Source: a bacterium (GTDB lineage Bacteria > Omnitrophota > Gorgyraeia > Aquiviventales > Aquiviventaceae). Taken from it: a stretch of 64,000 bases of DNA. The position numbers and the translations under genes were made by a program. The stretch covers positions 13,145 through 77,144 of the forward strand of contig DASWKB010000038.1 in the NCBI GenBank assembly GCA_036396895.1, given 5' to 3'. Position 1 is the first letter of the stretch; each line of letters opens with the position of its first letter. The notes beneath the pieces are model-generated. The model did no database searches, was not told where the DNA came from, and saw only the letters and a program-made list of their open reading frames with translations. Of the stretch, positions 8,189 to 50,618 are shown piece by piece.

Positions 8189-10503
8189 CTACTGCGCCAT
8201 GCGGATGCGATCCGCCCGCCGCTCCAGGTGCTCCGCTTTACCGACCTTTCCCGCTTTCCGCAACACGTCGGCGTAATTGTCCAGCAGGAACGCCACCTCG
8301 GGATGCGTCGGGCCGACCAGCTGTTCGTAGATATCGAGCGCGCGCTGGAAGAGCGCTTCCACCGTCGCCAATTCGCTTCCGCCGGTCTGGCGCGACAGCC
8401 CTTGCTGGCGCAAGGATTTGGCCGCCAGCTCCAGGATCTGATGATAGCGCTTGTATCTGGGGTCCTGGTTCGCGGGGCCGTCCCCGAGCTCGATCGGCGC
8501 CGCAAGCTGCACGGAGATCTCCCCGTCCGCCTCGGGCCCTCCGCCGGCCAGTGCCTGCTCCATGATGGCCAGCGCCCGCTGGAACATCCGCTCTGCCGCG
8601 TCCCGGTCGCCGCGCTGTTCGGTCACCCGGGCCAGGCGGCCCAGGATCCGGCCGACCTGGAGGTGCTCCGGTCCGCCGGACTGCTCGGCCACGTCGAGCG
8701 CGCGCGCGTACGCCTCTGAGGCTTCCTGGAGCCGCCCTTCGCCGCCGCGCAAGTCGCCGAGCTCGGTCAGGACGCGGGCGACTTCGGTATGCCGGTCGCC
8801 GAACTGGCGCTTCGTCAGGCGAAGCGCTTCCTCGAGCATCGCCCCCGCAGCCTCGATGTCGCCGCGCTCTCGCCGAACGGCCGCAAGCAGGCCGAGCAGC
8901 CGGGCGTCCTGCGCCTCGTCCCGGCGCGCGAGCGCGCGGTGTTCCCCGAGCAGGCGTTCTGCGCGCTCGATGAGCGGCGCCGCGGCCTCCAGCTCGCCGC
9001 GCGCCCGCTTGATCTCGGCCAGCTGGAGCAGCGCGCCCGCCAGCTGCGGCGCGCCCGAGGGTGCGGATGCCTGGAGAATGTCGGCCGCGCGCTGCCCGGC
9101 CGCCTCGGCTTCCTCGAACCGCTCCTGCGCGGCGTAGAGACTTGCCAGCTCGTTCAAGGGGCCGGCGGCGTCGGGATGCTCCGCGCCGAGGCGTCGCTCC
9201 ACGCCGAGCAGCGCCCGGCGCAGATGGGCTTCCGCCTCTCTCCCCCGTCCCTGCAGACGGAGCGCCGAGCCCCAGGCGCTCCTGGCCCGCACCGTCTCCG
9301 CATGGTCAGGTCCGAGGCGCTCCTCGGCGGTCGCGGTCGCCTGCGCCGCCAGCGTCTCTGCCGAGAGCAGATCGCCCCGCGCGGCCGCCAGCTCCGCGAG
9401 CGCGCGCAACGCGCCGGCGACCCTGGGATGGTCCGGGCCGTAGCGCTTCGCCGCGAGTTCCCGCGCCCGCTCCAACGCCTCGTGCGCCTGATCGAACTCC
9501 CCCCGCGCGGCCGCGAGATCCGCCCTGACGCGCAGCAGCGCGTCCTCGGACGGATGGCCCTCCGGCAGCCGCCGGCGGGCGCGCTCAAGCGCCTCCTCCG
9601 CGTCGGCGTACCGGCCCTCGGCGAGCGCCACGCGGCTGATCCCGAGCCAGACGTCCGCCATCAGCGGATGCTCGGCGCTCCAGACACGCTCGATGATCTC
9701 GCGGCTCTGAGACAGGAACGCCCGCGCCGAGGCGAGGTCGGACTCCTCGAGCGCAAGCGACGCGGAAGCCACCAGAGACTCCGCCATCCTGGGATGCGTC
9801 GGTCCCCAGCGCTCCTCGATGAGCGCGCGCGCCTCGCGCAGCGCCTCCCGGGCCTGCGGATACGCGCCGGCGCGCGCCTGCCGCTCGCCCTCGAGCAGCA
9901 GGATGTGCGCCGCCGGAGCCGATCCGCCTGAGCTGGCGCGGTCTGTCAGCGCCAGCGCCCGCGCGAGCAGCTCACCGGCCGCTCCGAAATCGGCCGTCGC
10001 CGTCGCGTTCGCCGCCAGGAGTCCAAGCGTGTGCGCCAGCTCCGGGGCGTCCGGGCCGAGTTCGCCCTCCGTGAGCTCGAGGCTGCGGGCCGCGAAGACG
10101 CGGGACGCCTCGAACGCTCCGAGGCGAAGATGGACCCCGGCGAGCCGGTCGAGAGCGGCGGACACCAGCGGATCGGATTGCGCGTGCCGGATGTGGCTCT
10201 GAATGGCGAGGACGCGGTAGGAGGTCCGCTCGGCTTCGGGCAGCCGTCCGGCGGCCAGTTGGAGGTCTCCGAGCACGGACAGGGCCGCCGCCACGGACGG
10301 CGCATCCGGACCAGCGGCGCGCTCCGCGCCAGCCACGGCGCGCGCCGCCGCGGTCTCGGCCTCCGCGTACCGGCCGGACTGCCGCAGCGCCCGCGCGCGC
10401 TCGAGCAGCTCCGCGGCCGGCTGAGCCCCCTCGGCGCACTCGGCCCGCGGCACGAACGACGCCACGAAGAGTCCCACGGCCAGGAGCAGCCGGGCGGTGT
10501 TCA
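8189..10503 (-). CDS. Tetratricopeptide-repeat (TPR_10/TPR_12-type) protein with an N-terminal signal peptide
   Basis: Long array of 42-aa repeats with the pattern ...LG..H...A..L..LA..Y...G.Y..AE.L. The likely start is the GTG at 10503 (VNTARLLLAVGLFVASFVPRAEC, a signal peptide). The ORF in the track is extended upstream. Confidence 0.65.
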
Positions 10504-11622
10504 CTCGGAACGGTGTCCCGGATGCGCGAGTTGCCGCAGCATCCACGCCACGACCGCAAGGCCCGCCGCGAACAAGACGAGAAACGCCGCCATGGGCCCC
10601 CACTGCGCCGAGACGCGCAGCTCCTCCGGCCGGAACACGTGCGCGAGTTCGATGGACTGCACCCATTGCCGGCTCACTGCGTTGGCGATCAACACGGCCG
10701 CCTGCGCCGCCGCCACGGGCCAGACGGCGACCGGACCGGCCGCCGCGCGTCGCATGAGCGCCCACACAAGGACCGGCAGCGCGGCGGACGCGGCCGAGGC
10801 CGCGAGCAGACCCGGCGTCCCGGCGATCGCGCCGGTCACGCGCGCCTCGAGCGTCCCGAACACGTACCAGGCGCCCATCGCGCCGAACCAGACCAGGCCC
10901 AGCCCGTGCAGCCGCGACGCGGCCCGCGCGGCCCAGCGCCGGTAGTCCTCGGACTCCCCGCGCGCCGCCGTCCGGGTCTCCACCAGAATGTACACCGCGG
11001 TCGTCATGATCGCCAAGCCGAACATCATCAGCCACCTGGGGAACAGCGTGGGATCCGCCAGGTTCAATCCCGTCCCGGTGACCGCGCCGGCGACGCTCGT
11101 CCGCTCATACAGCGCCAGCATCCTCGCCGGGTCGGCCATCAGGCTGAAGGCGTTCGAAAACACGAATCCGATCGCCAGGAACAGGCCGGCGCTCACGACC
11201 CCGGCCGCGCGGCCCAGCGGCGAGACCCGCCCGCCCCGCACCTGGCCGGCGTAGACATACACCCCGTAATACGCCGCCAGGAGCATGGGAATGACCGAGA
11301 ACCAGAACCATCCCATCATGATGGTCGCGGGATAGAACACGGGATAGTACGCGACCTGGATGAACAGGAGCGGCACGATGCCGAAGTTGACGCCCAGCGC
11401 GATGAGGATCGGCATCGCGCTCGCGAGCCGCCGGCCCAGGCGCGCCGCGTGCGCGTGCCGGGTGAACGCGCACACCGCGACGAGCACCATCCCGGCGTAC
11501 CAGACGTGCATCGGCACCATGTGGAGCACGAAGCCGAGCAGCTTGAAGCCGGCCAGAACCCAGTAGGGCGCCGGGCTGCCCGCCGGCGTCCCCGCCGCCA
11601 GCGGAAACGTCTCGGGCGTCAT
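10501..11622 (-). CDS. Polytopic inner-membrane protein of unknown function (possible partner subunit of the upstream CydA-like protein)
   Basis: 373 aa, about 9 predicted hydrophobic helices. Its 4-nt overlap with the upstream gene suggests translational coupling. Confidence 0.45.
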   Translation of the reverse strand: MTPETFPLAAGTPAGSPAPYWVLAGFKLLGFVLHMVPMHVWYAGMVLVAVCAFTRHAHAARLGRRLASAMPILIALGVNFGIVPLLFIQVAYYPVFYPATIMMGWFWFSVIPMLLAAYYGVYVYAGQVRGGRVSPLGRAAGVVSAGLFLAIGFVFSNAFSLMADPARMLALYERTSVAGAVTGTGLNLADPTLFPRWLMMFGLAIMTTAVYILVETRTAARGESEDYRRWAARAASRLHGLGLVWFGAMGAWYVFGTLEARVTGAIAGTPGLLAASAASAALPVLVWALMRRAAAGPVAVWPVAAAQAAVLIANAVSRQWVQSIELAHVFRPEELRVSAQWGPMAAFLVLFAAGLAVVAWMLRQLAHPGHRSE

Positions 11623-13007
11623 GCGCCCCCTCCCCGCGACTCCGCCCCCGGCAGGACCGGATGCGGCGACGCCAGCGTCTCCAGGTAGCGGCGCAGCGCC
11701 AGAGCCTCCTCCGGCCTCCCCGACCAGGGCGGCATGAAGAAATGATACCGGTCCAGATTCACGATGAGATGGTCCAGCATCCCGGGCGTCCAGCCGGGCA
11801 GCATTTCGCGCATGCCCGAATAGCCGCTCGCGGCGTGGCAGGAGCCGCAGTGGTGCATGAACACCGTCCGGCCGATGAGGCGCTGATCGGCCTCCGTCAG
11901 CGACGGGATGCGCGACTCATCGAGGCCGCCGCCGGAGACCAGCTGGGGCAGCCGCCCCGCAACGTACCGGCGCGTCCACACCCCCCCGTCGAGAAACCCG
12001 TCCCGCTTGAGGCGCGGCACCTCCGAGACGTAGATGTTGTGGCTGTACACCTCGCCGTAGATGACGAACGGCTTCCGGGCGGCCTCCCGCACGAATTCGG
12101 CCTGCCCGGTGACGATATAGCCGATGAGGAGCAGGAGCACGGCGAAGCCCGGGCTCACCCACTCGGGATGCCGGTAGGGGCCGAAGTAGAACATGAAGAA
12201 CACGACCACGCTGAGCGCGAAGATCAGCGCGATCATGAGGTTCATCGCCGCGGCGCCGATGAGCGTCGCCTTCGCGCTCGCCGGCAGCGCCGCGTGCCAC
12301 CAGAGGCCTCCCAGGGTGATGAGCACCGCCCCGGCCATCGCCGGCCGGGCCGAGCGGCGGGCGATCATCGCCCGCAGACCGGCCGGACCGTTCCAGAATG
12401 ACGAATGGACATAGACATACAGCGTCGCCAACAGCAGCGAGGCGCCGGTGCGGGCGACGATCTGCGGCAGGGTCTGAGGGTTCGCCCAGCCCCGCCAGAA
12501 GTCGCCCTGCCAGTCGCCGGGGTTGAGCATGAACGCGGTGATGCCGGTGATGATCACGAGGCTCATCCAGGCCGAGCCGGCGTAGATCCAGGCCATCGCC
12601 TGGTGCGCGCGCGGGGTGAGCCGGTCCCACGCGTAGTAGAAGATGAAGGCCGAGACGATCTCGATGAGGAAGAAGACGTACTCCATCGCCCAGCCGAACA
12701 CGAAGAGGTGGATGAGCATCTGGGTGGGGAGCGGAGAGGCGAGCCCGATGGTCCACCAGATGCCCACGCCCGTGATCGCCCCGTAGACGACGGTGAGCAG
12801 GATGAAGAACCACGCGTGCCGCCGGAGGTACGCCAGGTAGGCCGCGTTGCCGGTCCGGTAGGCGTGCCGGGTCTCCACCGCGAGGAACAACCCGCCGCCC
12901 ACCGCGTAGAGCGCGACGTAGATGTGGAGCACCGCGACGGCCGCGATGAGCATGGGGGCGGTCAGGCCGGGCACGTACCAGAACGGGTAATGCATGGCTG
13001 CGCTCAC
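11619..13007 (-). CDS. Cytochrome bd-type oxidase subunit I (CydA)-like membrane protein with a C-terminal monoheme cytochrome c domain
   Basis: The N-terminal ~330 aa has CydA-like helices (…FIFYYAWDRL… compares with the CydA FFFGWDRL region; EAARKPFVIYG compares with EAGRQPW). The C-terminal soluble domain contains MHHCGSCHAASGY, a CxxCH heme c site. Confidence 0.55.
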   Translation of the reverse strand: MSAAMHYPFWYVPGLTAPMLIAAVAVLHIYVALYAVGGGLFLAVETRHAYRTGNAAYLAYLRRHAWFFILLTVVYGAITGVGIWWTIGLASPLPTQMLIHLFVFGWAMEYVFFLIEIVSAFIFYYAWDRLTPRAHQAMAWIYAGSAWMSLVIITGITAFMLNPGDWQGDFWRGWANPQTLPQIVARTGASLLLATLYVYVHSSFWNGPAGLRAMIARRSARPAMAGAVLITLGGLWWHAALPASAKATLIGAAAMNLMIALIFALSVVVFFMFYFGPYRHPEWVSPGFAVLLLLIGYIVTGQAEFVREAARKPFVIYGEVYSHNIYVSEVPRLKRDGFLDGGVWTRRYVAGRLPQLVSGGGLDESRIPSLTEADQRLIGRTVFMHHCGSCHAASGYSGMREMLPGWTPGMLDHLIVNLDRYHFFMPPWSGRPEEALALRRYLETLASPHPVLPGAESRGGGA

Positions 13008-13026: not shown

Positions 13027-13701
13027 TCACCGGACCCAGCGGCCCGCCAGATGGCCGATGCCGTAGCCTGCGACCGCCGCGAGGCCCGCGATCCCGAGCA
13101 TTTCGAGCCCGCTCATCCACCAGCGCGTCTTCACCATCCGCCCCTTGAACGCGCCGAAGAGGAAGAGCGCCGCCGCCGTGGCCAGCACGGACACGAGCAT
13201 GGCCTCCCGCACCGTCCAGATGAGATACGGCGCCGCCGGCACGCATCCGCCGATCACGTAGGCTGTGCCCATCGTGAACGCGTTGCTCGCCGGCCGCTCG
13301 AGCGCCTCCGGGTAGATCCCGAGCTCCTTGTGCGCCATGTCCTCAAGGAGCAGGCGCTTGTCCGACAGGAGCCGCCGGGCGATGACGGCGATTTCCTCTT
13401 CCGTCCAGCCGCGGGCGCGGTACATCGCCACGAGCTCCCGCCGCTCGCCGGCCGGGTCGCGCTCGATCGCCTCTTCCTCCTCGCGGAGCAGCCGCGCCAG
13501 GTATTCGCGCTGCGCTTTGGAGGACAGGTAGGACCCGGCGGCCATCGAGAGCGATTCGACGACGATGATGACGCATCCCGCGATGATGACCGCGGCGGCG
13601 TCGCGGGTGCCCTCCGCGATGCCGGTCAGCGCGCCCAGCGTCGACACCAGACCGTCCTGGACGCCGAAGACCATCTCGCGCAGCCGCGCGCGGGCGCGCA
13701 T
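13027..13701 (-). CDS. VIT1/CCC1 family iron/manganese transporter
   Basis: The N-terminus REMVFGVQDGLVSTLGALTGIA is typical of the VIT family, and TM helices are present at both ends. The start is probably the internal Met (MRARARLREM…). Confidence 0.65.
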   Translation of the reverse strand: MRARARLREMVFGVQDGLVSTLGALTGIAEGTRDAAAVIIAGCVIIVVESLSMAAGSYLSSKAQREYLARLLREEEEAIERDPAGERRELVAMYRARGWTEEEIAVIARRLLSDKRLLLEDMAHKELGIYPEALERPASNAFTMGTAYVIGGCVPAAPYLIWTVREAMLVSVLATAAALFLFGAFKGRMVKTRWWMSGLEMLGIAGLAAVAGYGIGHLAGRWVR

Positions 13702-13835
13702 GTCGGGCGCGCCGCGGCGCCTCGCGGCGACGCTTCGCCCGGACGGCGGGGCGGGCGCGCCGGGAAGCGCATGATGCTCCCCCGGCGACGCCTCGCCCCG
13801 AGGAGCGGGCGGCGCGGGCAGCGCCCCGTCCGGGC

Positions 13836-14120
13836 TCATGCGGAAGAACTCCGGCGCATCATGAGGTAATAGAGCACGGGAATCGCGGTGCGGGAGAGCA
13901 GCGTCGAGGCGACTTCGCCCGCCATGAGCGCGATCGCCAGCCCCTGGAAGATGGGATCGAACAGGACGCCCGCGCCGCCGCCCAGGAGGAGCGACGCAGC
14001 CACCATGACCAAGGCTCCCGCGCGCGCGCTCATCGACACGTCCGGTTGGCGAGCACGATCCCGGAAGATCTTCTGCAGATTGCGCACGCTCATGAGGCCC
14101 ATCCGGTCAGTCCCGGCCAT
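13836..14120 (-). pseudogene. Possible remnant of an RND efflux pump: C-terminal ~90 aa only
   Basis: 94-aa ORF. …[30 protein letters not shown] resembles the last TM helix and C-terminus of RND (AcrB/CzcA) transporters. No RND body is present upstream. Confidence 0.3.
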
Positions 14121-16302: not shown

Positions 16303-17355
16303 CTAGCAGATACGGGGCAGCTGCTCGCCGCTCAGCATATCAAGAATCCGGGAGGATCCGATGGCGCTTTTCAGCGAGACAAGGCCGGGGGTGTCGCCCG
16401 CCACCCGTCCGATTTCGACCGCCTGCTGCCCCAGCGGGTGCGCCCGCATCAGGGCCGCCGCCCGGGGAGCGTCCTGGGGCGCCACGAACGCGACGAACCG
16501 CCCTTCGTTGGCGACGTACAGCGGGTCGAGACCCAGCATCTCGCAGGCGCCGCGCACCTCCTCGCGAACCGGCACGGCCGCCTCATCGACCGCAAGCGGC
16601 ACCCGCGCGCTCTGGGCAAGCTCCACCAGCGCGCTCGCGAGACCGCCGCGGGTGAGATCCCGCAGGCAGTGCACCTCGATCCCGGCCTCCACCAGCGCCG
16701 CGACGAGGCCGGCGAGCGGAGCCGAATCGCTCTCGATCGCGCTCTCGAACTCGAGCCCCTCGCGGACCGCCATGATCGCGATGCCGTGCCGGCCGATGTC
16801 TCCGCTCAGCAGCACCACGTCCCCCGGCCGGATGCGGTCGGGACCGATGACCACGCCGGGCGGCACAAGACCGAGCCCCGCGGTATTGAGGTAGATCCCG
16901 TCGCCTTTGCCCCGGTCCACGACCTTGGTGTCGCCGGTCACGATGTCGACTCCGGCCGAGGCGGACGCCTCCCGCATGGAGCGCACGACTTCCCACAAGG
17001 ACGCCATCGGAAACCCCTCTTCCAGAATGAAGCCCACGGTGAGCGCGACGGGCTTCGCCCCGCACATCGCCAGGTCGTTGACCGTGCCGTGCACCGCGAG
17101 CGAGCCGATGTCACCGCCGGGAAATTTCCAGGGCCGCACGACATAGGAATCCGTCGTCAGCGCCACCCGCGTCCCGTTCACGCCGAGGACGGCGCCGTCG
17201 TGCAGCCGCTCCGGGCTGCCGCCGAAGGCGGGTACGAACACCCGCTCGATCAGCTGGCGCATCAGCTTGCCTCCACCCCCGTGCGCGAGCAGAATCTGCG
17301 GCGTCTCCGTGATCGGCAGCGGACACGCAAGCGACAGCGGGGGGCGCTCGCTCAT
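16303..17355 (-). CDS. hypE: Hydrogenase maturation protein HypE (carbamoyl dehydratase)
   Basis: From [15 protein letters not shown]…; has AIR-synthase-like domains and the HypE C-terminus …PRIC. The ORF in the track has a spurious Arg-rich N-terminal extension. Confidence 0.9.
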
Positions 17356-18458
17356 CGCGCCTCCACCTTCGCCGCGACCCCCCGGTAGCGGTAATAGGCG
17401 GCGCAGGCCCCCTCGGATGAGACCATCGTCGCGCCCATCGGGCGCTCGGGCGTGCAGCGGGTGCCGAACGCGGGGCACTCCGTCGGCTTCTTCACGCCCT
17501 GCAGCACGAGCCCGCTCTCGCACTCGGCGGGCTCCTCCGTATGGCGGTCCGCTACGCCGAAGCGGCGCTCGGCGTCGTGCGCGTCGTACGGCGGCCGCAA
17601 GCCCAGGCCGCTTGCGGGGATGCTCCCGACGCCGCGCCACTTGCGGTCGACGACCGTGAAGACCTCCCGGATCAGCGCCTGCGCCGGACGGTTGCCCGCG
17701 CGCCGGACCGCGCGCGCATACTGGTTCTCGACCTCGGCGCGGCCCTCCTCGAGCTGGCGGACGCACAGGTACACGCCCTGGAGGATGTCGAGCGGCTCGA
17801 AGCCCGTCACGACGATCGGCACGCGGTAGCGCGCGGCCAGCGGGCCGTATTCGGCGGTGCCCATGATCGTGCAGACGTGTCCCGCGGCCAGGAATCCCTG
17901 CACCCGGTTCATGGGCGAGCTCAGGATCGCTTCCATGGCGGGCGGGACGAGCACGTGCGAGACGAGCAGAAAGAAATTCTGGAGGGTCGCCCGGTGCGCC
18001 TGATACACGGCCATGGCGGTGGCGGGCGCGGTCGTTTCGAACCCGACGGCGAAGAAGACGACCTCGCGGTCGGGATGCGCGGCCGCGAGCGCGACGGCGT
18101 CCATCGGCGAATAGACGACCCGGACGTCGCCGCCGCGCGCCTTCACGGCGAAGAGGTCCTCGCGGCTGCCGGGCACGCGCAGCATGTCTCCGAAGGAGCA
18201 GAAGATGACGCCCGGCGCCGCGGCGATCGCGAGCGCTTTGTCGATGAGCTCAAGGGGCGTCACGCACACGGGACAGCCGGGCCCGTGGATCAGCGTGAGC
18301 TCGGGCGGCAGGAGCTCGTCGATGCCGAACTTCACGATGGCGTGCGTCTGCCCTCCGCAGATCTCCATGATCGTCCAGGGGCGCCTCGTGCGATTCGCGA
18401 TCAGCCGCGCGTAGCGGCGGGCGGCTTCGGCGTCGCGGTACTCATCGATGAATTTCAT
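17352..18458 (-). CDS. hypD: Hydrogenase maturation protein HypD
   Basis: 368 aa with MKFIDEYRD…, the GPGCPVCV motif and the CGG motif. ATGA overlap with hypE. Confidence 0.9.
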
Positions 18459-18709
18459 GGCGGCGGCGCCTCAAGTTCCGCGAGCTCGCCCATGCGCCGC
18501 AGGTAGTCGAAGACGACGGTCGCTTCCTGCTCGTCGACTTTGCTGATCGCGAACCCGACGTGCACGATCACGTAGTCCCCCACCCCGGCCTCGGGGACAT
18601 AGGAGAGGTTGACGGGCTTGAGGACGCCGCCGAAGCTCACCTTTCCGGTCCGCGCGCCGGGCTCCTCCCGCTCGAGGCGCACGATTTGTCCGGGCACGCC
18701 GAGGCACAT
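18455..18709 (-). CDS. hypC: Hydrogenase maturation protein HypC
   Basis: [11 protein letters not shown]-terminus (the MCL(A/G)(I/V)P signature), about 84 aa. Confidence 0.85.
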
Positions 18710-21414
18710 CACGTCCTCCGCTCGCTTCGGTCGGCGGCGAGAGCCTGGCCGAGCGACAGTCCGCCGTCATTCGGCGGAACGCGCTGATGCCAGTAGGGGC
18801 GAAATCCGGCATCGCGCAGGCGGCGCACCGCCCGCTCGGTCAGCCGGCGGTTCTGGAAGCACCCGCCGCTGAGCGCGACACGGCGCTCGCCGATCGCGGC
18901 GGCCGCCGCAAGGATATATTCTACCAAGGTCTCGTGCACGTTCGCCGCGATGATTCCCGCGTCCACGCCGCGCCGGCGGTCCTCGAGGAGCCCGCGCACC
19001 ATCGGACCCCAGTCGATCACGATGGGCGAGTCCGCCCCTCCCGGCCGGCCCAGCCGCACAGGGTACGGCCCGGAGCCGTCCGCGCGCCCGGCCACGTCTT
19101 CCAGCAGCATCGCCGCCTGCGCTTCGAACGCCGCGACCTGCCGCAGCCCGATGAGCGCGGCGACGGCGTCGAAGAGCCGCCCGGCGCTCGAGGTGATCGG
19201 CGCGTGGATCCCGCGCCTCAGCATGACCCGCAGCACCTCCCGCTCCTTCGGTGTGAACGCGGCCAGCGCCGGCACCTCGCGGCGCGAAAACGCCCCCTCG
19301 CCGAAGAGCTCGTACAGCACGCCGAGCGCCGAGCGCCGCGGCTCCTTGACGGCCTGATCCCCGCCCGGGAGGCGGAACGTGCGCAAGTGCGCCGCGCGCT
19401 CGAACCCCCGGGCGCCGACGCGAAGGAATTCCCCTCCCCAGACCGTGCCATCGAGCCCGTACCCCGTGCCGTCCCAGGCGACGCCGAGGACCGGCGGCTC
19501 CAGGTCGTTCTCCGCCATGCAGCTGAGCACGTGCGCGTAGTGATGCTGCACCGCCACGACCGGGAGGCCCGTCTGCCCGGCATACTGGGTCGAGCGGTAA
19601 TCCGGGTGGGCGTCGCAGGCGACCGCCTGAGGCCGCGCCTCGTGCAGGCGCGCGAGGTTCTCCGCGGCCTGCTGGAACGCGGCATACGCCTGCACGGTCT
19701 CGAGATCGCCCAGGTGCTGGCTGACGACCACGCCGGAGCCGACGGTGAGCGCGACGGTGTTCTTCAGGTGCCCGCCGACGGCGAGCACGGTCCGGACGGA
19801 GCGCCGCTTCAGCGGCACCGGCAGAGGGGCGTAGCCGCGCGCCCGGCGGATCAGAAGCTCGCGCTCGAGCACGACGCGCACGACGGAATCGTCCACGTGC
19901 CTGGCGATCGGCCGGTTGTGGACCAGAAAGAGGTCGGCAATGCCCTCCAGCCTGTCCAGCGCCTCGCTCTCGTCCGTGCAGATCGGCTCGTCCGAGAGGT
20001 TACCGCTGGTCGCCACGATGGGACCCGCGACCGCCTGAACGAGCAGGTGGTGCAGCGGCGTGTACGGGAGCATGACGCCCAGCGTCCGTTGCCCGGGGGC
20101 GAGGCTCTCCGCCAACGGGGACTCCTCAGGCCGGATCCGCTTCTCGAGCAGCACAATCGGGGCCTGGGGAGACGCGAGGAGGCGCTCCTCGATTTCCGAT
20201 ACGTCGCACTGCGCCCGCACCGCGCCGACCGAGCGCACCATCACCGCCAGCGGCTTCTCCTCGCGCCGCTTGCGCTCGCGCAGTTCCCGCACGGCGCCGT
20301 CATTGCGCGCGTCCGCGACCAGATGGAATCCGCCGAGCCCCTTGACCGCCACGATGCCGCCTGAGCGCACTGCCTCGGCCGCCGCCGCGAGCGCGGCGGC
20401 GTCCCTGGCCAGCACCGCGCCCGCCGGATCCCACAGCGCCAGACGGGGTCCGCAGGCCGGGCAGGCGTTCGGCTGGGCGTGGAACCGGCGGTCGGCCGGA
20501 TCGTCGTATTCGCGGCGGCAGTCCGGGCAGAGCGTGAAGCGGCTCATCGTCGTGGCCGGCCGGTCGTAGGGCAGTGCGAGGATAATGCTGAACCGCGGCC
20601 CGCAGTTCGTGCAGTTGGTGAACGGATACCGGAAGCGGCGGTCGCGCGGATCGTCGAGCTCCCGACGGCAGTCCGCGCACGTCGCCAAATCTGGCAGGAC
20701 GACGCCGGTCCGGGCGCCGCCCTGACCGCTTTGGCGGATGGCGAAACCGCGGAGCCCGGCCGCGTCCAGCCAGCGGACCTCCTCGCTGTACACCGCGGCC
20801 TGTGGCGGGAGATCATGGCGGAGCCCCTCCAGCAGCCGCGCGAGCGTCTCCGGAGCGCCTTCCGCCTCGACGATCACGCCTTGGGGGGAGTTCTGCACCC
20901 AGCCGTCGAGCCCGAGCCGGGTCGCCAGCCGGTGCACGAAGGGACGGAACCCGACGCCCTGTACCGCGCCGGTCAGGGCGACGTGGAGCCGCCGCCGCTC
21001 CTGCCGCGCGATCCGGATCCCGGATTGTTGCGCCATCGGACTCTCCATCCGCCGTGACGGCCCCTCGGCCGCCTCCGTCGAATCCGCCACCGTCACGTCG
21101 ATCACCTCGAGCGCGTGCGCACCCGGCACCTCGATCAGCGCGCCGCAGGCGCCGCACGGGAGCATCGACCCGGCGAGCGCGTCGTGCGTCACGGGCTCAT
21201 CGCGCCCGCACGCGCACCGGACGGACGTCACGCCCGGCTCGATGATGACCTCGGCGGACTCCAGGACGGACCCCGCCGAGGCGGCCGCGAGGGCGTGCCG
21301 CACCGCCTCGGGCGCGAGCGCGCCTCCCGCACGGACCCGCACCTGTCGTACTCCTGTCGGGAACCGCCGGGTGAGCTCGCGCATCAGGGCCAAGACGGAG
21401 CCGGATTCATGCAT
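18709..21414 (-). CDS. hypAF: HypA-HypF fusion: N-terminal HypA (Ni-insertion zinc-finger protein) fused in-frame to carbamoyltransferase HypF
   Basis: MHESGSVLALMRELT… plus CxxC…CxxC (CACGRD…CGACG) make a HypA of about 115 aa. After a linker comes the HypF acylphosphatase domain (LTGAVQGVGFRPFV), two CxxC zinc fingers, and the YrdC and Kae1-like domains, ending …GGLSLGQ. There is no stop codon between the HypA and HypF parts. Confidence 0.75.
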   Translation of the reverse strand: MHESGSVLALMRELTRRFPTGVRQVRVRAGGALAPEAVRHALAAASAGSVLESAEVIIEPGVTSVRCACGRDEPVTHDALAGSMLPCGACGALIEVPGAHALEVIDVTVADSTEAAEGPSRRMESPMAQQSGIRIARQERRRLHVALTGAVQGVGFRPFVHRLATRLGLDGWVQNSPQGVIVEAEGAPETLARLLEGLRHDLPPQAAVYSEEVRWLDAAGLRGFAIRQSGQGGARTGVVLPDLATCADCRRELDDPRDRRFRYPFTNCTNCGPRFSIILALPYDRPATTMSRFTLCPDCRREYDDPADRRFHAQPNACPACGPRLALWDPAGAVLARDAAALAAAAEAVRSGGIVAVKGLGGFHLVADARNDGAVRELRERKRREEKPLAVMVRSVGAVRAQCDVSEIEERLLASPQAPIVLLEKRIRPEESPLAESLAPGQRTLGVMLPYTPLHHLLVQAVAGPIVATSGNLSDEPICTDESEALDRLEGIADLFLVHNRPIARHVDDSVVRVVLERELLIRRARGYAPLPVPLKRRSVRTVLAVGGHLKNTVALTVGSGVVVSQHLGDLETVQAYAAFQQAAENLARLHEARPQAVACDAHPDYRSTQYAGQTGLPVVAVQHHYAHVLSCMAENDLEPPVLGVAWDGTGYGLDGTVWGGEFLRVGARGFERAAHLRTFRLPGGDQAVKEPRRSALGVLYELFGEGAFSRREVPALAAFTPKEREVLRVMLRRGIHAPITSSAGRLFDAVAALIGLRQVAAFEAQAAMLLEDVAGRADGSGPYPVRLGRPGGADSPIVIDWGPMVRGLLEDRRRGVDAGIIAANVHETLVEYILAAAAAIGERRVALSGGCFQNRRLTERAVRRLRDAGFRPYWHQRVPPNDGGLSLGQALAADRSERRT

Positions 21415-21973
21415 CGGGCACCGCCGGCTCAGGCGCGCGCGGAGGCGCGGACGGACACGCCAGGTCCCGCAGGATGCGCCCCGCGACCTTCGCAGACGCC
21501 CGTCGCACCGCGGGCGTGACCGGCGCTCCGGGATCAAAGCAGTCCCCCTCGATGCCGTACACCATCACCCGGGCCGGCAGACGGCGCATCGCCCGGGCCA
21601 GCTCGATCGCGTCGGCGACGCCCATCCCGTGCGTCGAGTGCTGGCGCAGCTCAGCCGGTACGGGACCCTCGCTCACGGCGAGCCGGTGGATCGTCCCCGG
21701 CCGAGCGCCGGAGGCGACGGCATCGATGAGCACGACGTGCTCATGGGCCGCCCAGGCATCCAACAACTCCGTCAGCGCGCCCCCGGCTTCGAGGATCTCG
21801 ACGCCCGGCAATGCCGCGGACCGAATGCGGCGCGCCGCCAGCACCCCGGCGGCGTCATCGCCGCGGAGCGTGTTCCCCATGCCCACCACGAGCACCCGCC
21901 CGGCCGGCAGAGGCGCCGCCGGACCGGCCGATGCCGCATCCGTCCCGGATGTCCGGCGCGCACGTCCCCGCAT
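21407..21973 (-). CDS. Hydrogenase maturation endopeptidase (HycI/FrhD/HoxW family)
   Basis: VLVVGMGNTLRGDDAAGV (GNxLxxDDG motif), about 160-188 aa, immediately downstream of the large subunit. Confidence 0.75.
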   Translation of the reverse strand: MRGRARRTSGTDAASAGPAAPLPAGRVLVVGMGNTLRGDDAAGVLAARRIRSAALPGVEILEAGGALTELLDAWAAHEHVVLIDAVASGARPGTIHRLAVSEGPVPAELRQHSTHGMGVADAIELARAMRRLPARVMVYGIEGDCFDPGAPVTPAVRRASAKVAGRILRDLACPSAPPRAPEPAVPDA

Positions 21974-21976
21974 GGC

Positions 21977-23300
21977 TCACTCCCGGAACAGCCGCAGCTT
22001 CAAGAAGTGCGTGGAACACGAAATGCACGGGTCGTAGTTCCTCACGGCCTGCTCGCATTGCCACTCGAGTTCCTTCGCCGGGAGCGAGAGCCGTTCCGGC
22101 ACAAACGCCCGGAGATCCTGCTCGATCGTGGCCTGGTTCACCGCCGTCGGAGACACGATCTTGGCGTCCCGGATCGTCCCCGCGTCGTCGATCGTGTACC
22201 GGTGGTAGAGGATCCCCCGCGGCGCCTCGGTGACGGCGTAGCCCGTGCCCGCGCGGGGCCGCACTTCGACGGCGGGGGCGTCGGGCGGCTCGTACGCCTC
22301 GATGATCCGCAGCGCTTCCTCGAACGCGAACACCGTTTCGACCCCGCGCACCAGGATGCTCCGGAACGGGTTCCGGCACGAGTCGCTCAGGCCGGCCTGC
22401 CGCGCCGCGTCTTGCGCGACCGACGGAAGGCGCTCGAAGTTCAGGCTGTACCGGGCCAGCGGCCCGACGTGCGCCGTGCCGCGGCCCTGCACCACGCTGT
22501 GCAAGGCGGTCGAATGCGGCTGGTGTTGCTCCAGCAAGTGGGCATCGTAGTCCCGGACCTCGATGTCGAGGCCTTTGTTGGACACGAGCCGTCCTTCGTT
22601 CAGCGGGTACTCCTCGGCGTGCCGGAGCGCCACGAACTCATAGTCCTGCTCGAAGTCCGGGTAGGACAGCGTGGCCAGCCACGACATCGTCTTCACGGCG
22701 GCGTCGCGCCCCCAGGCCAGTTCGTCGCGCATGACCGCCAGTTCCGACTTGGTCGGCACCCGGTAGAATCCGCCGATCTTGACGTTGATCGGGTGGATCT
22801 CCCGTCCGCCCAGGAGCGTCATGAGCGTATTGCCGGCCTTCTTCATGCGGAGGCCGCGCTGGACGAGCTCAGGATGGTCTTTGGCCATCTGCACCGCGTC
22901 CTGATACCCGAGGAAATCCGGCGCGTGGAGCAAAAACATGTGCAGCACGTGGCTCTCGATCCATTCGCCGCAGTACAAGAGCCGCCGGAGCGCCCGCAGC
23001 GGCCCGTCCACGGTCACGCCGCAGATCTGCTCCATCGCATGCACGGCGCACATCTGATAGGCGACCGGGCAGATCCCGCAGATGCGCGCGGTGAGATCCG
23101 GCGCTTCGCGGAAATCCCGGCCGCGCAGCAACGCCTCGAAAAACCGCGGCGGCTCGACAATGCGCAGCTTCACGTCCTTGACGTCCCTCCCGCGGATGCG
23201 GATGTCGAGGCCGCCCTCGCCCTCCACCCGGGCGAGATAGTTCACCTTAATGTGACGCGTCGCGGTGCGGGGCATGGGCTTCACTCTCCCGTCGGAAGAC
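21977..23300 (-). CDS. hydA: [NiFe]-hydrogenase large (alpha) subunit, group 3b (sulfhydrogenase/NADP-coupled type)
   Basis: N-terminal [10 protein letters not shown] and C-terminal [10 protein letters not shown] Ni-binding CxxC pairs. About 440 aa. Confidence 0.85.
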
Positions 23301-24044
23301 ATCGGCATAGGCGTTGTACGTCCGGAAGCTGCGCACGAGGTCCGCCTCATGCGCGCCCAGCTGCTTCCACTGCTCGCTCAGCGCGCGGGTGTTGGCGCTT
23401 TCCATCGGGCCGAAACACCCGTAGCAGCCGCGGGAGAAAGCCGGGCAGATCGCCCCGCAGCCGTCCTGGGTGACGGGACCCAGACACGGCGTCCCGTGGG
23501 CCGTCATCACGCACGTCAGGCCGCGACGCTTGCAGGTGAGGCAGACGCTCGACGTCGGCAGGTTCGGCGCCCGTCCGTTCAGGAGCGCGCTGAAGACTTC
23601 CAGGAGCTGCGCCTTGTTGATCGGACAGCCCCGCAGTTCCAGATCCACCGTCACGTGGTCGATGATCGGCGTCGAGCGCTCCAGCGTCTCGATGTACTCC
23701 GGTTTGGCGTAGACGATGGACACGAACTCGTTGACCTTGCGGAAATTCCGCAGCGCCTGGATCCCGCCCGCGGTCGCGCACGCCCCGATGGTCACCAGCA
23801 TCCGGGACGCCCGCCGCACCTGTTGAATCCGCTCGGCATCATGGGAGGTCGTCACGGACCCTTCGACCAGCGAGACGTCATACGGCCCCTTCACGACGGC
23901 CCGTGACGCCTCAGGAAAATTCGCGATGTCCACCGCGCCCGCCACCGCGAGGAGCTCGTCCTCGCAGTCGAGGAGGCTCAGCTGACACCCGTCGCAGGAC
24001 GCGAATTTCCAGACTGCCAGTGTCGGCCGCTTCACCGCTCCCAT
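23247..24044 (-). CDS. hydD: [NiFe]-hydrogenase small (delta) subunit, group 3
   Basis: [12 protein letters not shown]…IGACATAGG, a short group-3 small subunit lacking a Tat signal. Confidence 0.8.
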
Positions 24045-24045
24045 G

Positions 24046-24906
24046 TCATATCTCCCGCTTGGCCAGCCACGGTTCCACGCGATCGACCCGAAACACCGGG
24101 CCGTCCTTGCAGACAAAGAACGGCCCGAACTGACAGTGCCCGCAGAGCCCGATGGCGCACTTCATATTGCGCTCCAAGCTGACGTAGATCCGGTCGTTCG
24201 TCACGCCGCGCTTCTGGAGCTCCTGGACGGCAAATCGCATCATGATCTCGGGACCGCAGACCATGGCGAGCGCCTGCAGGGGATCGAACCCGGCCCGCCG
24301 GATCAGGGGCGTCACCACCCCGACGTTCCCGCGCCAGCCCCCTTCCCCCCGGTCGACGGTGACCTGGACGTCGAGGTCGAATCGCCCGCCCCAGAGCCGC
24401 AGCTCGTTGCGGAAGAGAATGTCGCTCGGCGTCCGGGTCCCGTACAGCAGCACCACGCGCCCGTACCGGGACCGGTGCGCCAGCACGTGATAGATGGCCG
24501 GCCGCAGCGGCGCCAGCCCGATCCCGCCCGCGACGATCACGACATCCCGGCCGGCGGCGAGGTCCAGCGGCCAGCCGGTGCCGAAGGGCCCGCGCACGCC
24601 GAGGAGCCCTCCGCGTCCAAGACGGCTCATGGCGTTCGTCACCGCGCCCACGGCGCGCGTGGTATGCCCGACGCGCACGGTGGATGCCGGATCGCCCGAG
24701 ATCGAAATCGGGACTTCTCCCACCCCGATCACGTCGAGCATGTTGAACTGTCCGGGCCTGAAGGGCCGGACGCGCGAGCCCGGCTGCGGCTGCAGCTCCA
24801 TCGTAAACGTGTCGGCCGTTTCCTTCCGCACCCGCTTAATGAGAAACAGGTCCGGCCGCATCGGATCGGCGCCCCGCCCGTTCGTCTTGGTCTTCGCGCG
24901 CATCAC
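24046..24906 (-). CDS. hydG: Hydrogenase gamma subunit (PyrK/AsrB-like FAD/NAD(P)-binding, 2Fe-2S)
   Basis: FNR-like fold and the C-terminal [10 protein letters not shown] 2Fe-2S motif. Confidence 0.8.
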
Positions 24907-26558: not shown

Positions 26559-27587
26559 TCACGATCCGTCCGGCGCGTCGCCGGGCCGGGGACGCAGCGC
26601 GTAGGAACGCAGCACCTTCATGTAATTGGCCCGCTCGAACGCTTCGGGCTCGGCCACCGCCACCGTGCTCATGCTGCCCTGCATCTGCTGGACGGACTCG
26701 TATTCGTGCTCTTCCATCCACCGCACGAGGCCGGCCGTGAGCGTCTGCACGTGCTCGGGGCCGTGGCGCAGCAGCGCCGAGGTCATCATGGCCACCCGCG
26801 CGCCGGCCATCATGGCCTTCAGGACGTCCTCCGCCGTGTGGACGCCCCCCGTGACCGCCAGGTCCGCGCGCAGGCAGCCGTAGAGCATCGCCACCCACTG
26901 CAGGCGAAGCCGCAGCTCATCCGACGTGCTGAGCCGCAAGTTCGGGACGACCTCCAGCCGCTCCAGATCCAGATCCGGCTGATAGAACCGGTTGAACACG
27001 ACGAGCGCATCCGCCCCCGCGGACTCCAGGCGGCGGGCGATGTGGGCCAGCGCGCTGAAGAACGGGCTGAGCTTGACGGCCACCGGGATGTCGATGCTCG
27101 CCGCCACGTCCCTGACCAGCTGGACATACATCGCCTCGACGTCCGCGCCGCTGGTGTCCGGATTGGTCGGGATGAAATAGACGTTGAGCTCCAGCGCGTC
27201 TGCGCCGGCCTCCTGGATCCGCTTGGCGTAGCTGATCCAGCCGCCGGTGGAGACGCCGTTCAAACTGCCGATGATCGGGATCCCCACCGCCGCTTTCGCC
27301 CGCCGGATGTGCTCGAGGTACTCCTCGGGTCCGAGGTTGTAGCGCGTCATGTCCGGAAAGTAGGTGAGCGCCTCCGCGAAGCTCTCCGTCCCGTAGGAGA
27401 GGAACCGGTCCAGGTCCTGGCTCTCCAGAACGATCTGCTCCTCGAACAGCGACGGCAGCACGACGGCCGCGATGCCCGCGTCCTCGAGGCGCTGGATGCT
27501 CCGGAGGTCCTCCCCCAAGGGCCCGGCCGAGGCGACGAGCGGGCTGCGCAGCGTCAATCCCAGGTAGCGCGTCGTGAGGTCAGGCAT
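26559..27587 (-). CDS. Dihydroorotate dehydrogenase-like (PyrD class 1-like FMN TIM-barrel) protein
   Basis: …[11 protein letters not shown]…, [11 protein letters not shown] and [19 protein letters not shown] match the DHOD family. Sits between PFOR and hydB. Confidence 0.65.
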
Positions 27588-30500: not shown

Positions 30501-31161
30501 TGTGCGCCGTGCCCCGGATGACCGGCCGGTCCGGAGTGAGCGCGCGGGCTCGGAACGCGCGAACCAAGTCGTCGTCGATCAGGGCCCGGAGATCCTCGGG
30601 GGCGAGCCGTTCGACCTTCATGACCTCGTGCGAGGTCCTGAATCCGTCGAAGAAATGCACCGCGGGCACGCGGGACTTGAGCGCGGCCGCGTGGCTCACC
30701 AAGGCGAGGTCCATCGCCGCCTGCACGGAGCTGGAGGCGAGCATGGCGAACCCGGTCGCGCGCGCGGCCATCACGTCGCTGTGGTCGCCGAAGATCGACA
30801 GCGCCTGGGTCGCGATGGACCGGGACGCGACGTGAAACACCGTCGGGAGCAGCTCCCCGGCGATCTTGTACATGTTCGGGATCATGAGGAGCAGGCCCTG
30901 CGAGGCGGTGAACGTCGTGGTCAGTGAGCCCGCCTGGAGGGCGCCGTGCACCGCCCCCGCGGCTCCGCCTTCGCTCTGCATCTCTTCAACCGAGGGAGGA
31001 ACCCCCCACAGGTTCGGCCTGCCCTGGGTCGCCCACTGATCCGCCCATTCCCCCATGGTCGAAGAGGGGGTGATGGGATAGATCGCGATCACCTCGCTGA
31101 GTTGATAGGCGATCTCGGCAACCGCCTGGTTGGCATCGAGCGTCACGCTCGGGCGTGGCAT
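27580..31161 (-). CDS. nifJ: Pyruvate:ferredoxin (flavodoxin) oxidoreductase, single-polypeptide NifJ/PFOR type
   Basis: 1193 aa with ferredoxin-like [12 protein letters not shown] and the TPP motif [16 protein letters not shown]. Confidence 0.9.
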
Positions 31162-40512: not shown

Positions 40513-40686
40513 CAGCGGTGTGTCCGTGCCGTTACAACGGGAGGGCGACTGCGTCCCTGCCGACCATGCGCCTTATCATACTACACCGATGCGTCGGAAG
40601 GAAAGACGGGAAAAAACCTGGCCATGGCGACGAAGGCGAGCCCGCCGGCGCAGAGCCCCGCCGCGGCCATCGCGAGCGCGCGCCGC

Positions 40687-42603: not shown

Positions 42604-42678
42604 GGACCGGCCGAGCGGGCATGACACGTTACACATCCAACATGACACAATCGGGATTCCGCATTCCGCATTTGGCAC
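42540..42678. repeat. Heptamer-array hairpin element, GGAATKC family, copy 2 (longest; near-perfect terminal inverted repeats)
   Basis: gtgccaaattcggaattcggaatgcggaatg …(unique core with tgtcatg/catgaca and ggctcggc/gccgagc sub-palindromes)… gggattccgcattccgcatttggcac. Confidence 0.75.
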
Positions 42679-42686
42679 TGATTTCG

Positions 42687-44200
<1,514 letters not shown>

Positions 44201-44201
<1 letters not shown>

Positions 44202-46560: not shown

Positions 46561-46811
46561 GGAGCCTCACGGGCAAGCCCGTCGCACTTGTCATCCCACG
46601 CTCCGCGTGAGGCGACATCCCGCCCCCGGTCTTGGCCGGAGCAGGCTCGGCGGGATGGAGCCTCACGGGCATGCCGGTTGCCCACATGAACACCGCCCGT
46701 GGGGCGGAATCCCGCGCGAGCCCACGGCCGCTGGCCGTGGTGCGAGTCGCGGGATCACCGGGTCCTTTCGCGCGCGTCATGATCCGCACCGGCAGCGCGC
46801 CCGCGGCTCCG
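46560..46811. repeat. Structured spacer between Rieske and cytochrome b genes, with direct and inverted copies of GGAGCCTCACG and several short stem-loops
   Basis: Two direct repeats of about 26 nt (atggagcctcacgggcaagcc…/atggagcctcacgggcatgcc…), an inverted copy (cgcgtgaggcg), and hairpins cgggcaagcccg and ccacgggc…gcccgtgg. Confidence 0.45.
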
Positions 46812-47294: not shown

Positions 47295-47394
47295 AAGAGG
47301 AGGCCGCCCGCCGGCTCCCGCGCATCCGCGCGTCAGTCAGGTCGCCTGGCGGGCGGCCTCCGCAGTGCCCGTGACGCCGTGCCGGAAGCCCGGA

Positions 47395-49431: not shown

Positions 49432-49449
49432 CTCGCCTCCTCCCTCGCC

Positions 49450-50568: not shown

Positions 50569-50618
50569 TGCTCCCCCCTCAGGCTGCATCCGCGCACCAC
50601 ACTCGGCCGTTCCTGAGC

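What the first reader, a model, noticed from the sequence alone, without database searches (positions are those of the whole stretch)
11619..13007. CydA-like membrane protein with a C-terminal cytochrome c domain and an uncharacterised membrane partner
The first about 330 aa align loosely with cytochrome bd subunit I helices (…IFYYAWDRL… against the CydA FFFGWDRL). There is no long Q-loop. The C-terminus carries a soluble monoheme c domain (CGSCH). The downstream 373-aa polytopic protein (10501-11622) does not look like CydB. This may be a divergent bd-like oxidase or reductase that receives electrons from cytochrome c rather than quinol.
Basis: partly seen in the sequence, partly recalled or inferred. 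Interest (0 to 1): 0.55.

Follow-up and report, generated by a model that had tools for sequence, protein, structure and literature searches.

The report
Cytochrome c-fused bd-type oxidase pair
This is a two-gene membrane enzyme of the cytochrome bd oxidase superfamily that has lost the quinol site and carries its own cytochrome c domain; it belongs to the "OR-C" family, which was named from genomes in 2021 but for which I found no biochemical study.

Summary
ORF 11619-13007(-) is a real gene; its likely start is the ATG at 12995, giving 458 aa. It encodes an 8-helix CydA-like core: Pfam Cyt_bd_oxida_I scores 48.9 bits against a cut-off of 26.2. There is no Q-loop. A C-terminal monoheme c domain carries CGSCH and an invariant FFMPPW Met.

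The active-site and proton-channel residues are kept: H28=H19, E109/E116=E99/E107, H135=H126, S149=S140, and probably E308=E445. An invariant Arg (R186) replaces the haem b558 ligand H186.

The 373-aa partner has no Pfam, NCBIfam or PDB sequence hit. Its AlphaFold model nevertheless matches only bd-oxidase subunits. A broad family profile aligns collinearly with the CydA-c family (HHalign 95.8%, E 8e-9). It is therefore a CydA paralogue that keeps the H19-equivalent (H34, invariant in 70/70) and lacks the two channel glutamates.

The stop and start codons overlap (ATGA). The pair is adjacent in 81/81 loci with room, and relatives occur in 536 GTDB species.

These features match the OR-C1a/OR-C1b family of Murali, Gennis and Hemp (2021). 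O2 reduction is inferred, not shown.

The parts
11619..12995 (-). OR-C1a-type subunit ('CydA-c'), 458 aa from the ATG. The ORF extends to the GTG at 13007. Residue numbers in this report use the 462-aa numbering.
   Evidence: ORF. Pfam PF01654 48.9 bits. More than 1133 homologues at 53-76% identity. Start choice from SD AAGGAG and homologue N-termini.
12075..12956 (-). Membrane core, residues 18-311: 8 TM helices, with N- and C-termini both periplasmic. Key residues: H28 (=E. coli H19), E109/E116 (=E99/E107), H135 (=H126), S149 (=S140), R186 in place of H186, E304/R307/E308/R311-K312-P313 (=E445/R448 motif).
   Evidence: AF2 model, pLDDT 79.5. Alignments to Geobacillus and E. coli CydA. Invariant columns. 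K+R 11 on the inside against 2 on the outside.
11670..11894 (-). Periplasmic monohaem class I cytochrome c domain, residues 372-446. CGSCH lies at 11835-11849; the probable distal ligand is M425 in the invariant FFMPPW.
   Evidence: Pfam PF13442 E 0.0022, below the cut-off. 7o38_A cytochrome c-552 E 1.3e-3.
10501..11622 (-). OR-C1b-type subunit, 373 aa with 9 TM helices. It is a CydA paralogue in the CydB position. H34, Q89, W107, Y118, Y122, R196 and R318 are invariant. There are no E99/E107 equivalents and no CxxCH.
   Evidence: AF2 pLDDT 88.7, pTM 0.89. The 15 best Foldseek PDB hits are all bd oxidase chains. HHalign of A3 against A2: 95.8%, E 8.1e-9, 300 collinear columns. Invariants.
11619..11622 (-). 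ATGA overlap between the stop codon of subunit a and the start codon of subunit b, which suggests translational coupling.
8189..10504 (-). TPR-repeat protein with a signal-peptide-like N-terminus. Its GTG start overlaps the partner's stop (GTGA), so it is probably co-transcribed in this genome. It is not conserved next to the pair elsewhere.
   Evidence: Neighbour clustering.
13027..13839 (-). VIT1-family (Fe/Mn transporter) gene that ends 31 nt upstream of the ATG, on the same strand. It is not conserved next to the pair elsewhere.
   Evidence: Pfam PF01988 E 1.3e-56. Neighbour clustering.

Best explanation

**Shown or directly read from the sequence**
- Subunit a is a CydA core cut down to 8 helices.
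- It keeps the axial His of the di-haem O2 site (H28) and the E445/R448-like motif in TM8.
- It keeps the whole cytoplasmic proton channel (E109, E116, S149, H135).
- It has no Q-loop and no haem b558 ligands.
- Its C-terminus, predicted to be periplasmic, carries a monohaem class I cytochrome c domain.
- Subunit b is a diverged duplicate of CydA. It takes the structural place of CydB and lacks the channel glutamates.

**Inferred mechanism**
1. A periplasmic donor, probably a soluble or membrane-bound cytochrome c, reduces the fused haem c.
2. The fused haem c replaces b558 as the entry haem and passes electrons to the two haems in the TM1-4 bundle.
3. There O2 is reduced to water with protons taken from the cytoplasm.
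4. Turnover therefore separates charge across the membrane without pumping.

In a host that also encodes PFOR and a [NiFe] hydrogenase, the enzyme would serve micro-oxic respiration and/or O2 scavenging.
For: **Superfamily**
- PF01654 scores above its cut-off.
- The ten best Foldseek PDB hits for subunit a are all subunit I chains.

**Residue map**
- H28, E109, E116, H135 and S149 are invariant and align to the E. coli and Geobacillus residues.
- The two glutamates are 7 residues apart, as in Geobacillus and as reported for OR-C.

**Loss of the quinol and b558 module**
- The TM6-TM7 linker is 13 residues.
- H186 aligns to the invariant R186.

**Haem c domain**
- CGSCH and M425 are invariant.
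- The topology puts the domain in the periplasm.
- A ResB-type cytochrome c maturation gene lies in the same window.

**Partner**
- It has the bd fold and is a CydA paralogue at 95.8%.
- The ATGA overlap links the two genes.
- It sits directly downstream on the same strand in 81/81 loci with room.
- No other gene recurs in more than 12 of 84 loci.

**Match to the published family**
- The description fits: 8 TM, C-terminal haem c, an adjacent OR-C1b, and lists of 1-haem OR-C1a next to 0-haem 'hypothetical' OR-C1b.
Against: - I found no biochemical study of any OR-C enzyme. O2 as substrate, haem types and the electron donor are all inferred.
- Many carriers are MAGs labelled with lineages I take, from general knowledge, to be mostly anaerobic (Bipolaricaulota, Anaerolineae, Thermodesulfobacteriota).
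- The E308=E445 alignment is weak on its own (6.4 bits), and the authors' table lists E445 as absent in their OR-C1a reference.
- The Pfam cytochrome c hit is below its cut-off in this protein.
- I could not place the protein with the authors' own HMMs, or next to a listed isolate sequence.
Confidence: 0.7

Rival explanations
1. It is a bd-family haem enzyme, but O2 is not the physiological substrate. The cytochrome c-fed, proton-consuming site reduces another small oxidant such as H2O2, NO or an oxyanion. Alternatively, the pair works mainly as a transmembrane electron conduit using haems in both subunits.
For: - Carriers are mostly MAGs labelled with lineages I take to be mostly anaerobic, and the host has PFOR, a [NiFe] hydrogenase and a multihaem/porin cluster.
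- H34 in the partner is invariant in 70/70 sequences and aligns to the haem ligand H28/H19, so a further haem is possible.
- I found no activity data for OR-C.
Against: - The full set of residues used for O2 reduction and proton delivery in canonical bd is strictly conserved.
- From general knowledge, canonical bd oxidases are themselves common in nominal anaerobes as O2 scavengers.
- In L003 the pair sits beside a haem-copper oxidase operon.
Confidence: 0.2
2. It is an ordinary quinol-oxidising cytochrome bd (CydAB), as the database names say ('cytochrome ubiquinol oxidase subunit I').
For: Source annotations and the PF01654 hit.
Against: - There is no Q-loop.
- The b558 ligand H186 is replaced by R186, and there is no M393 region.
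- A haem c domain is fused to the C-terminus.
- The partner has no significant PF02322 hit: only 2 of 43 relatives match, best E 0.0013.
Confidence: 0.03
3. The downstream 373-aa protein is an unrelated transporter or membrane protein that is adjacent by chance.
For: No family hit in Pfam, NCBIfam or PDB by sequence.
Against: - Adjacent on the same strand in 81/81 loci across many phyla.
- ATGA overlap with subunit a.
- The 15 best fold hits are all bd oxidase chains, at probability 1.00.
- HHalign 95.8% to the CydA-c family.
Confidence: 0.01

Closest known systems
OR-C1 (OR-C1a + OR-C1b) cytochrome bd-type oxygen reductases, Murali, Gennis and Hemp 2021 (bioRxiv 10.1101/2021.01.16.426971)
   Same: - 8-TM CydA core without a quinol site.
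- A C-terminal periplasmic extension with CxxCH.
- H19, E99 and E107 are kept, with the short spacing between the glutamates.
- An adjacent cydA-derived second subunit without the channel glutamates.
- Their list includes 1-haem OR-C1a next to 0-haem 'hypothetical' OR-C1b in Thermoanaerobaculum, Hydrogenobacter, Thermocrinis and D. vulgaris DP4.
   Different: - This clade is almost entirely from MAGs, and no listed isolate appeared among the closest relatives.
- It keeps H126, S140 and an E445/R448-like motif that their table gives as variable or absent in the Desulfovibrio reference.
- The model of the partner shows 9 helices, not 8.
- I could not test placement with their HMMs.
Canonical cytochrome bd quinol oxidase CydAB (qOR1-3; E. 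coli 6rko/6rx4, Geobacillus 5doq)
   Same: Fold of both subunits, the di-haem-site His, the proton-channel Glu/Glu/Ser/His, and the GWDRL and ExxRQPW-type motifs.
   Different: - No Q-loop, and H186 is replaced by Arg.
- 8 helices instead of 9 in subunit I.
- A fused cytochrome c.
- Subunit II is a CydA paralogue with a conserved TM1 His, not a PF02322 CydB.
CydAA' (qOR4a/qOR4b) of Archaea
   Same: The second subunit is a CydA duplicate that keeps the H19 equivalent and lacks E99/E107 (compared).
   Different: CydAA' keeps the quinol site and b558 ligands in subunit a and has no haem c.
OR-N bd-like oxidases of Nitrospirota and Chloroflexota
   Same: No quinol site, and cytochrome c is proposed as the donor.
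   Different: OR-N subunits have 10-14 helices and no fused haem c in CydA, and they sit in operons with separate electron-donor modules.

Membership tests
Cytochrome bd superfamily, subunit I (Pfam PF01654) | HMM score above the gathering threshold | tested here: met
   48.9 bits against 26.2, E 4.8e-13.
Cytochrome bd superfamily, subunit I (Pfam PF01654) | Four-helix core with the axial His (H19) and the proton-channel glutamates E99/E107 | tested here: met
   H28, E109 and E116 are invariant and align to Geobacillus H21/E101/E108 and E. coli H19/E107.
Cytochrome bd superfamily, subunit I (Pfam PF01654) | bd subunit I fold | tested here: met
   The ten best Foldseek PDB hits are all CydA/AppC chains, E down to 3.5e-7.
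qOR (quinol-oxidising CydAB) | Periplasmic Q-loop / quinol-binding site between TM6 and TM7 | tested here: not met
   The linker is 13 residues.
qOR (quinol-oxidising CydAB) | Haem b558 ligands H186 and M393 | tested here: not met
   H186 aligns to the invariant R186, and no M393 region aligns.
qOR (quinol-oxidising CydAB) | CydB (PF02322) as second subunit | tested here: not met
   No hit for the window protein. Only 2 of 43 relatives hit weakly, best E 0.0013.
OR-C (Murali et al. 2021) | CxxCH haem c site in subunit I, on a C-terminal periplasmic extension | tested here: met
   CGSCH at 387-391, invariant. The domain follows TM8, and the topology is N-out/C-out.
OR-C (Murali et al. 2021) | About 8 TM helices, no quinol site | tested here: met
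OR-C (Murali et al. 2021) | Adjacent OR-C1b, a cydA-derived 'b' subunit lacking E99/E107 | tested here: met
   HHalign 95.8%, E 8.1e-9, with H34 aligned to H28 and no Glu equivalents. Adjacent in 81/81 loci.
OR-C (Murali et al. 2021) | Placement in the OR-C clade by the authors' HMM classifier or tree | not testable with these tools
A search seeded from a Blastocatellia homologue returned no listed isolate.
OR-C (Murali et al. 2021) | Oxygen reductase activity with cytochrome c as donor | not testable with these tools
   This is also only proposed in the literature.
OR-N | 10-14 TM CydA without fused haem c, in operons with separate donor modules | tested here: not met
   8 TM, fused haem c, and a self-contained two-gene cassette.
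Class I cytochrome c (PF13442 and relatives) | CxxCH plus a distal Met, with an HMM score above the cut-off | tested here: inconclusive
   The motifs are invariant, but the score is 18.7 bits against a cut-off of 27. Most homologues carry a precomputed PF13442 hit.

The most novel reading that the evidence does not exclude
The enzyme is not simply 'bd with a cytochrome c handle'. The CydA-derived partner binds its own haem through H34, which is invariant in 70/70 sequences. A second possible ligand sits at TM5 position 199, where E. coli CydA has H186: His in 43/70 relatives and Met in this clade.

The complex would then be a pseudo-symmetric multi-haem machine. In these mostly anaerobic lineages it might reduce something other than O2, or carry electrons across the membrane.
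Probability: 0.12. Interest if true: 0.65.

Novelty: new member of a known kind. Interest (0 to 1): 0.3.

Why it matters
OR-C is one of three branches of the cytochrome bd superfamily, and I found no purified or assayed member in the searchable literature.

This clade is compact: one haem c and two genes that need no conserved accessory genes nearby. It is also very widespread. Relatives occur in 536 GTDB species representatives, and the partner family has 1466 cluster representatives at 50% identity. Databases still label it 'ubiquinol oxidase subunit I' plus 'hypothetical protein'.

Correct annotation changes how the O2 tolerance and respiratory chains of many uncultured Armatimonadota, Bipolaricaulota, Chloroflexota, Planctomycetota and Acidobacteriota are read.

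For this window the result is confirmatory. It is a clean example of a known, uncharacterised family. The one added point is that the partner is demonstrably a CydA paralogue with an invariant TM1 histidine.

Tried and rejected
1. **Pairwise BLASTP of the two subunits.** Nothing found.
2. **Narrow partner profile (A1) against the CydA-c profile.** Only 21.7-24.9% probability. A broader profile (A3), built from the exhaustive representative search, was needed to reach 95.8%.
3. **HHalign of the profiles against single E. coli CydA and CydB sequences.** Too insensitive to separate CydA from CydB ancestry. Even the true pair, A2 against CydA, gives only 19.7%.
4. **Pfam scans of 43 and 70 partner relatives.** Two weak CydB hits and otherwise noise.
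5. **Profile search of the partner against PDB sequences.** No hit.
6. **Foldseek against AFDB50,** to reach named isolates. The library was unavailable.
7. **Third homologue search, seeded from a Blastocatellia locus,** to reach Chloracidobacterium or Thermoanaerobaculum. Only MAG proteins were returned.
8. **Literature search for locus tags of listed OR-C1a genes.** No papers.
9. **Apparent 865-aa 'fusion' of both subunits (P0325).** Rejected as a frameshift artefact, because residues about 215-320 are Arg/Pro-rich out-of-frame sequence.
10. **Conserved neighbours.** None beyond the pair. Clusters seen in 12 loci or fewer are generic domains (sigma-54 activators, ABC ATPases), and PFOR is nearby in only 6 of 84 loci.
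11. **Promoter and terminator scan.** Uninformative in this 70% GC DNA.
Full report
**1. What is there**

The minus strand carries two overlapping genes.
- The upstream ORF runs 11619-13007: 462 aa from a GTG.
- Every homologue begins MHYP, and an AAGGAG lies 11 nt before the ATG at 12995, so the product is most likely 458 aa. Residue numbers below use the 462-aa numbering.
- Its TGA overlaps the ATG of the 373-aa downstream gene (10501-11622) as ATGA.

In this genome two further same-strand genes abut the pair.
- A VIT1-family gene ends 31 nt upstream.
- The GTG of a TPR protein with a signal-peptide-like N-terminus overlaps the partner's stop.

Neither of these neighbours is conserved elsewhere.

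**2. Subunit a is a trimmed CydA with a cytochrome c tail**

Family and fold:
- Pfam Cyt_bd_oxida_I matches residues 20-232 at 48.9 bits (cut-off 26.2).
- Geobacillus CydA (5doq_A) is hit at E 4e-6 with the sequence and 8e-9 with a 42-sequence profile.
- The AlphaFold model (pLDDT 79.5) has eight TM helices: 18-52, 55-90, 96-125, 132-158, 179-204, 209-239, 253-278 and 286-311. A helical soluble domain follows at 327-446.
- The ten best Foldseek PDB hits are all bd subunit I chains.

Residue mapping, with conservation:
- H28 = E. coli H19.
- E109 and E116 = E99 and E107. They are 7 residues apart, as in Geobacillus.
- H135 = H126, and S149 = S140.
- AWDRL = GWDRL.
- All of these are invariant in 42 homologues.
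- The TM8 motif E304-x2-R307-E308-x2-R311-K312-P313 aligns with the CydA AExGRQPW motif (E445/R448). That stretch is weak on its own (6.4 bits).

What is missing:
- TM6 and TM7 are joined by 13 residues, so there is no Q-loop.
- The b558 ligand H186 aligns with an invariant Arg, R186.

Topology and the haem c domain:
- K+R counts are 11 on predicted cytoplasmic loops and 2 on periplasmic loops.
- With eight helices, both termini are therefore periplasmic. That is where a c-type haem domain must be.
- The domain has one CxxCH (CGSCH, 387-391) and an invariant FFMPPW with M425.
- It resembles cytochrome c-552 Ks_3357 at E 1.3e-3.
- The Pfam cytochrome c score is below its cut-off here (18.7 against 27). 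Most homologues carry a precomputed PF13442 hit.
- A ResB-type cytochrome c maturation gene lies at 38767-40512.

**3. The partner is the second bd subunit, derived from CydA**

Sequence searches against Pfam, NCBIfam and PDB find nothing. BLASTP against subunit a also finds nothing.

Fold evidence:
- The AlphaFold model is confident (pLDDT 88.7, pTM 0.89) and has nine TM helices.
- The 15 best Foldseek PDB hits are all cytochrome bd chains, both A and B type, at probability 1.00 and TM 0.43-0.67.

Profile evidence:
- A narrow family profile aligned to the CydA-c profile only marginally: 21.7%, E 1e-3.
- That is about the level of the true pair, CydA-c profile against E. coli CydA (19.7%).
- An exhaustive HMM search found 1466 representatives at 50% clustering with E ≤ 1e-3.
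- A 70-sequence profile built from them (24-45% identity to the window protein) aligns collinearly over 300 columns with the CydA-c family at 95.8%, E 8.1e-9.

In that alignment:
- H34 pairs with H28, and R318 pairs with R307.
- The positions of E109 and E116 are hydrophobic in the partner.
- H34, Q89, W107, Y118, Y122, R196 and R318 are invariant in 70/70 sequences.

The partner is thus a 'b-type' CydA paralogue, not a PF02322 CydB.

**4. Conservation**
- Subunit a has more than 1133 relatives, and 3006 when seeded from another member. The partner has more than 527.
- A scan of one genome per GTDB species found 536 species with a relative. Nearly all are MAGs labelled Armatimonadota (closest, 66-67%), Bipolaricaulota, Chloroflexota, Planctomycetota, Acidobacteriota, Kryptoniota, Zixibacteria and others.
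- In all 81 fetched loci with room downstream, the partner follows directly on the same strand.
- No other gene family recurs in more than 12 of 84 loci. The cassette is self-contained.

**5. Comparison with what is known**

Murali, Gennis and Hemp (bioRxiv 10.1101/2021.01.16.426971) split the bd superfamily into qOR, OR-C and OR-N. Their description of OR-C:
- It lacks the quinol site.
- It has about eight helices and a C-terminal periplasmic extension with haem c.
- It keeps H19, E99 and E107.
- It sits next to OR-C1b, a cydA duplicate.

Their Table S7 lists many single-haem OR-C1a genes. It also lists OR-C1b genes with no haem c, annotated 'hypothetical protein'. In Thermoanaerobaculum aquaticum, Hydrogenobacter thermophilus, Thermocrinis and D. 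vulgaris DP4 the gene IDs of the two lie next to each other.

They report OR-C in 41 phyla, including Armatimonadota, Chloroflexota, Planctomycetota, Acidobacteriota and Zixibacteria. Later papers use the same classification.

Every defining feature that I could test is met. Placement with the authors' own HMMs could not be tested.

Minor differences from their Desulfovibrio reference row:
- H126, S140 and an E445-like motif are conserved here.
- The partner model has nine helices.

**6. Mechanism**

The sequence shows an intact di-haem-site ligand set and proton channel, loss of the quinol/b558 module, gain of a periplasmic haem c, and an obligate CydA-like partner.

The inferred mechanism has three steps.
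1. A periplasmic cytochrome c reduces the fused haem c.
2. The fused haem c feeds the two haems in TM1-4.
3. There O2 is reduced with cytoplasmic protons, which gives an electrogenic, non-pumping oxidase.

The host also encodes, within the window, PFOR, a [NiFe] hydrogenase with its hyp genes, and a multihaem/porin cluster. A micro-oxic respiration or O2-scavenging role is therefore plausible.

I found no biochemical study of an OR-C enzyme. A different acceptor, or an extra haem in the partner at H34, cannot be excluded.

**7. Verdict**

The system is a member of an already named, biochemically uncharacterised family.

The database names are misleading: 'cytochrome ubiquinol oxidase subunit I' for subunit a and 'hypothetical protein' for the partner.

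Interest is modest.

Noticed in passing
window 38767-51842 (- strand): A ResB-like cytochrome c biogenesis gene (38767-40512) is followed by several multihaem cytochromes. ORF 40687-42903 has 11 CxxCH plus a cytochrome b561 domain. ORF 42687-44300 has 6 CxxCH, 44201-46126 has 9, and 49450-50589 has 8 with MtrC-like domains. An MtrB/PioB-like beta-barrel gene lies at 47395-49431. Together they look like a porin-cytochrome extracellular electron-transfer cluster.
   Followed up: partly
window 16303-24116 (- strand): [NiFe] hydrogenase large and small subunit genes (21977-23350, 23247-24116) lie next to ORFs whose translations look like hypF/hypC/hypD/hypE maturation genes (16303-21537). Only the two hydrogenase subunit ORFs were scanned against Pfam; the hyp assignments are my reading of the ORF translations.
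   Followed up: partly
window 26559-31161 (- strand); L004/L024 1221-5862; L005 1468-5103: PFOR (27580-31161) and a DHO_dh-like gene (26559-27587) lie about 14 kb from the pair. In bacterium HR10 the same two genes sit immediately upstream of the OR-C pair. A PFOR-sized cluster is nearby in 6 of 84 loci. This is a possible weak link to protection of O2-sensitive enzymes.
   Followed up: partly
window 8189-10504 (- strand): A 771-aa TPR_12-rich protein has a signal-peptide-like N-terminus. Its GTG start overlaps the OR-C1b stop codon (GTGA). It is apparently co-transcribed here but is not found next to the pair in other loci.
   Followed up: partly
partner residue 199 (window about 11026-11028); alignment A3: At the TM5 position that lines up with E. 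coli CydA H186 (in an alignment that is not significant on its own), 43 of 70 OR-C1b-family representatives have His. This clade has Met (M199-M200, at least 90% conserved). Together with the invariant H34, this hints that the 'b' subunit may bind haem.
   Followed up: partly
P0325 (865 aa): This looks like a fusion of both subunits. The middle (residues about 215-320) is Arg/Pro-rich out-of-frame sequence, so it is a frameshifted gene call and not a natural fusion.
   Followed up: yes
L003 8502-13362: In a Bipolaricaulota MAG the OR-C pair lies next to a haem-copper oxidase operon (COX1, COX3, COX4_pro) with haem A synthesis genes (CtaA, UbiA-family, DUF420).
   Followed up: no
homologues P0255, P0257, P0259, P0260, P0262, P0263: Some CydA-c homologues carry a precomputed hit to a recent Pfam entry, PF28413, that I did not look up. 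It may be a dedicated model for part of this family.
   Followed up: no
window 13836-14120 (- strand): A 94-aa ORF overlaps the start of the VIT1 gene. Its hydrophobic C-terminus (…[13 protein letters not shown]) reads to me like the end of an RND-type transporter, so it may be a gene fragment. This was not tested.
   Followed up: no
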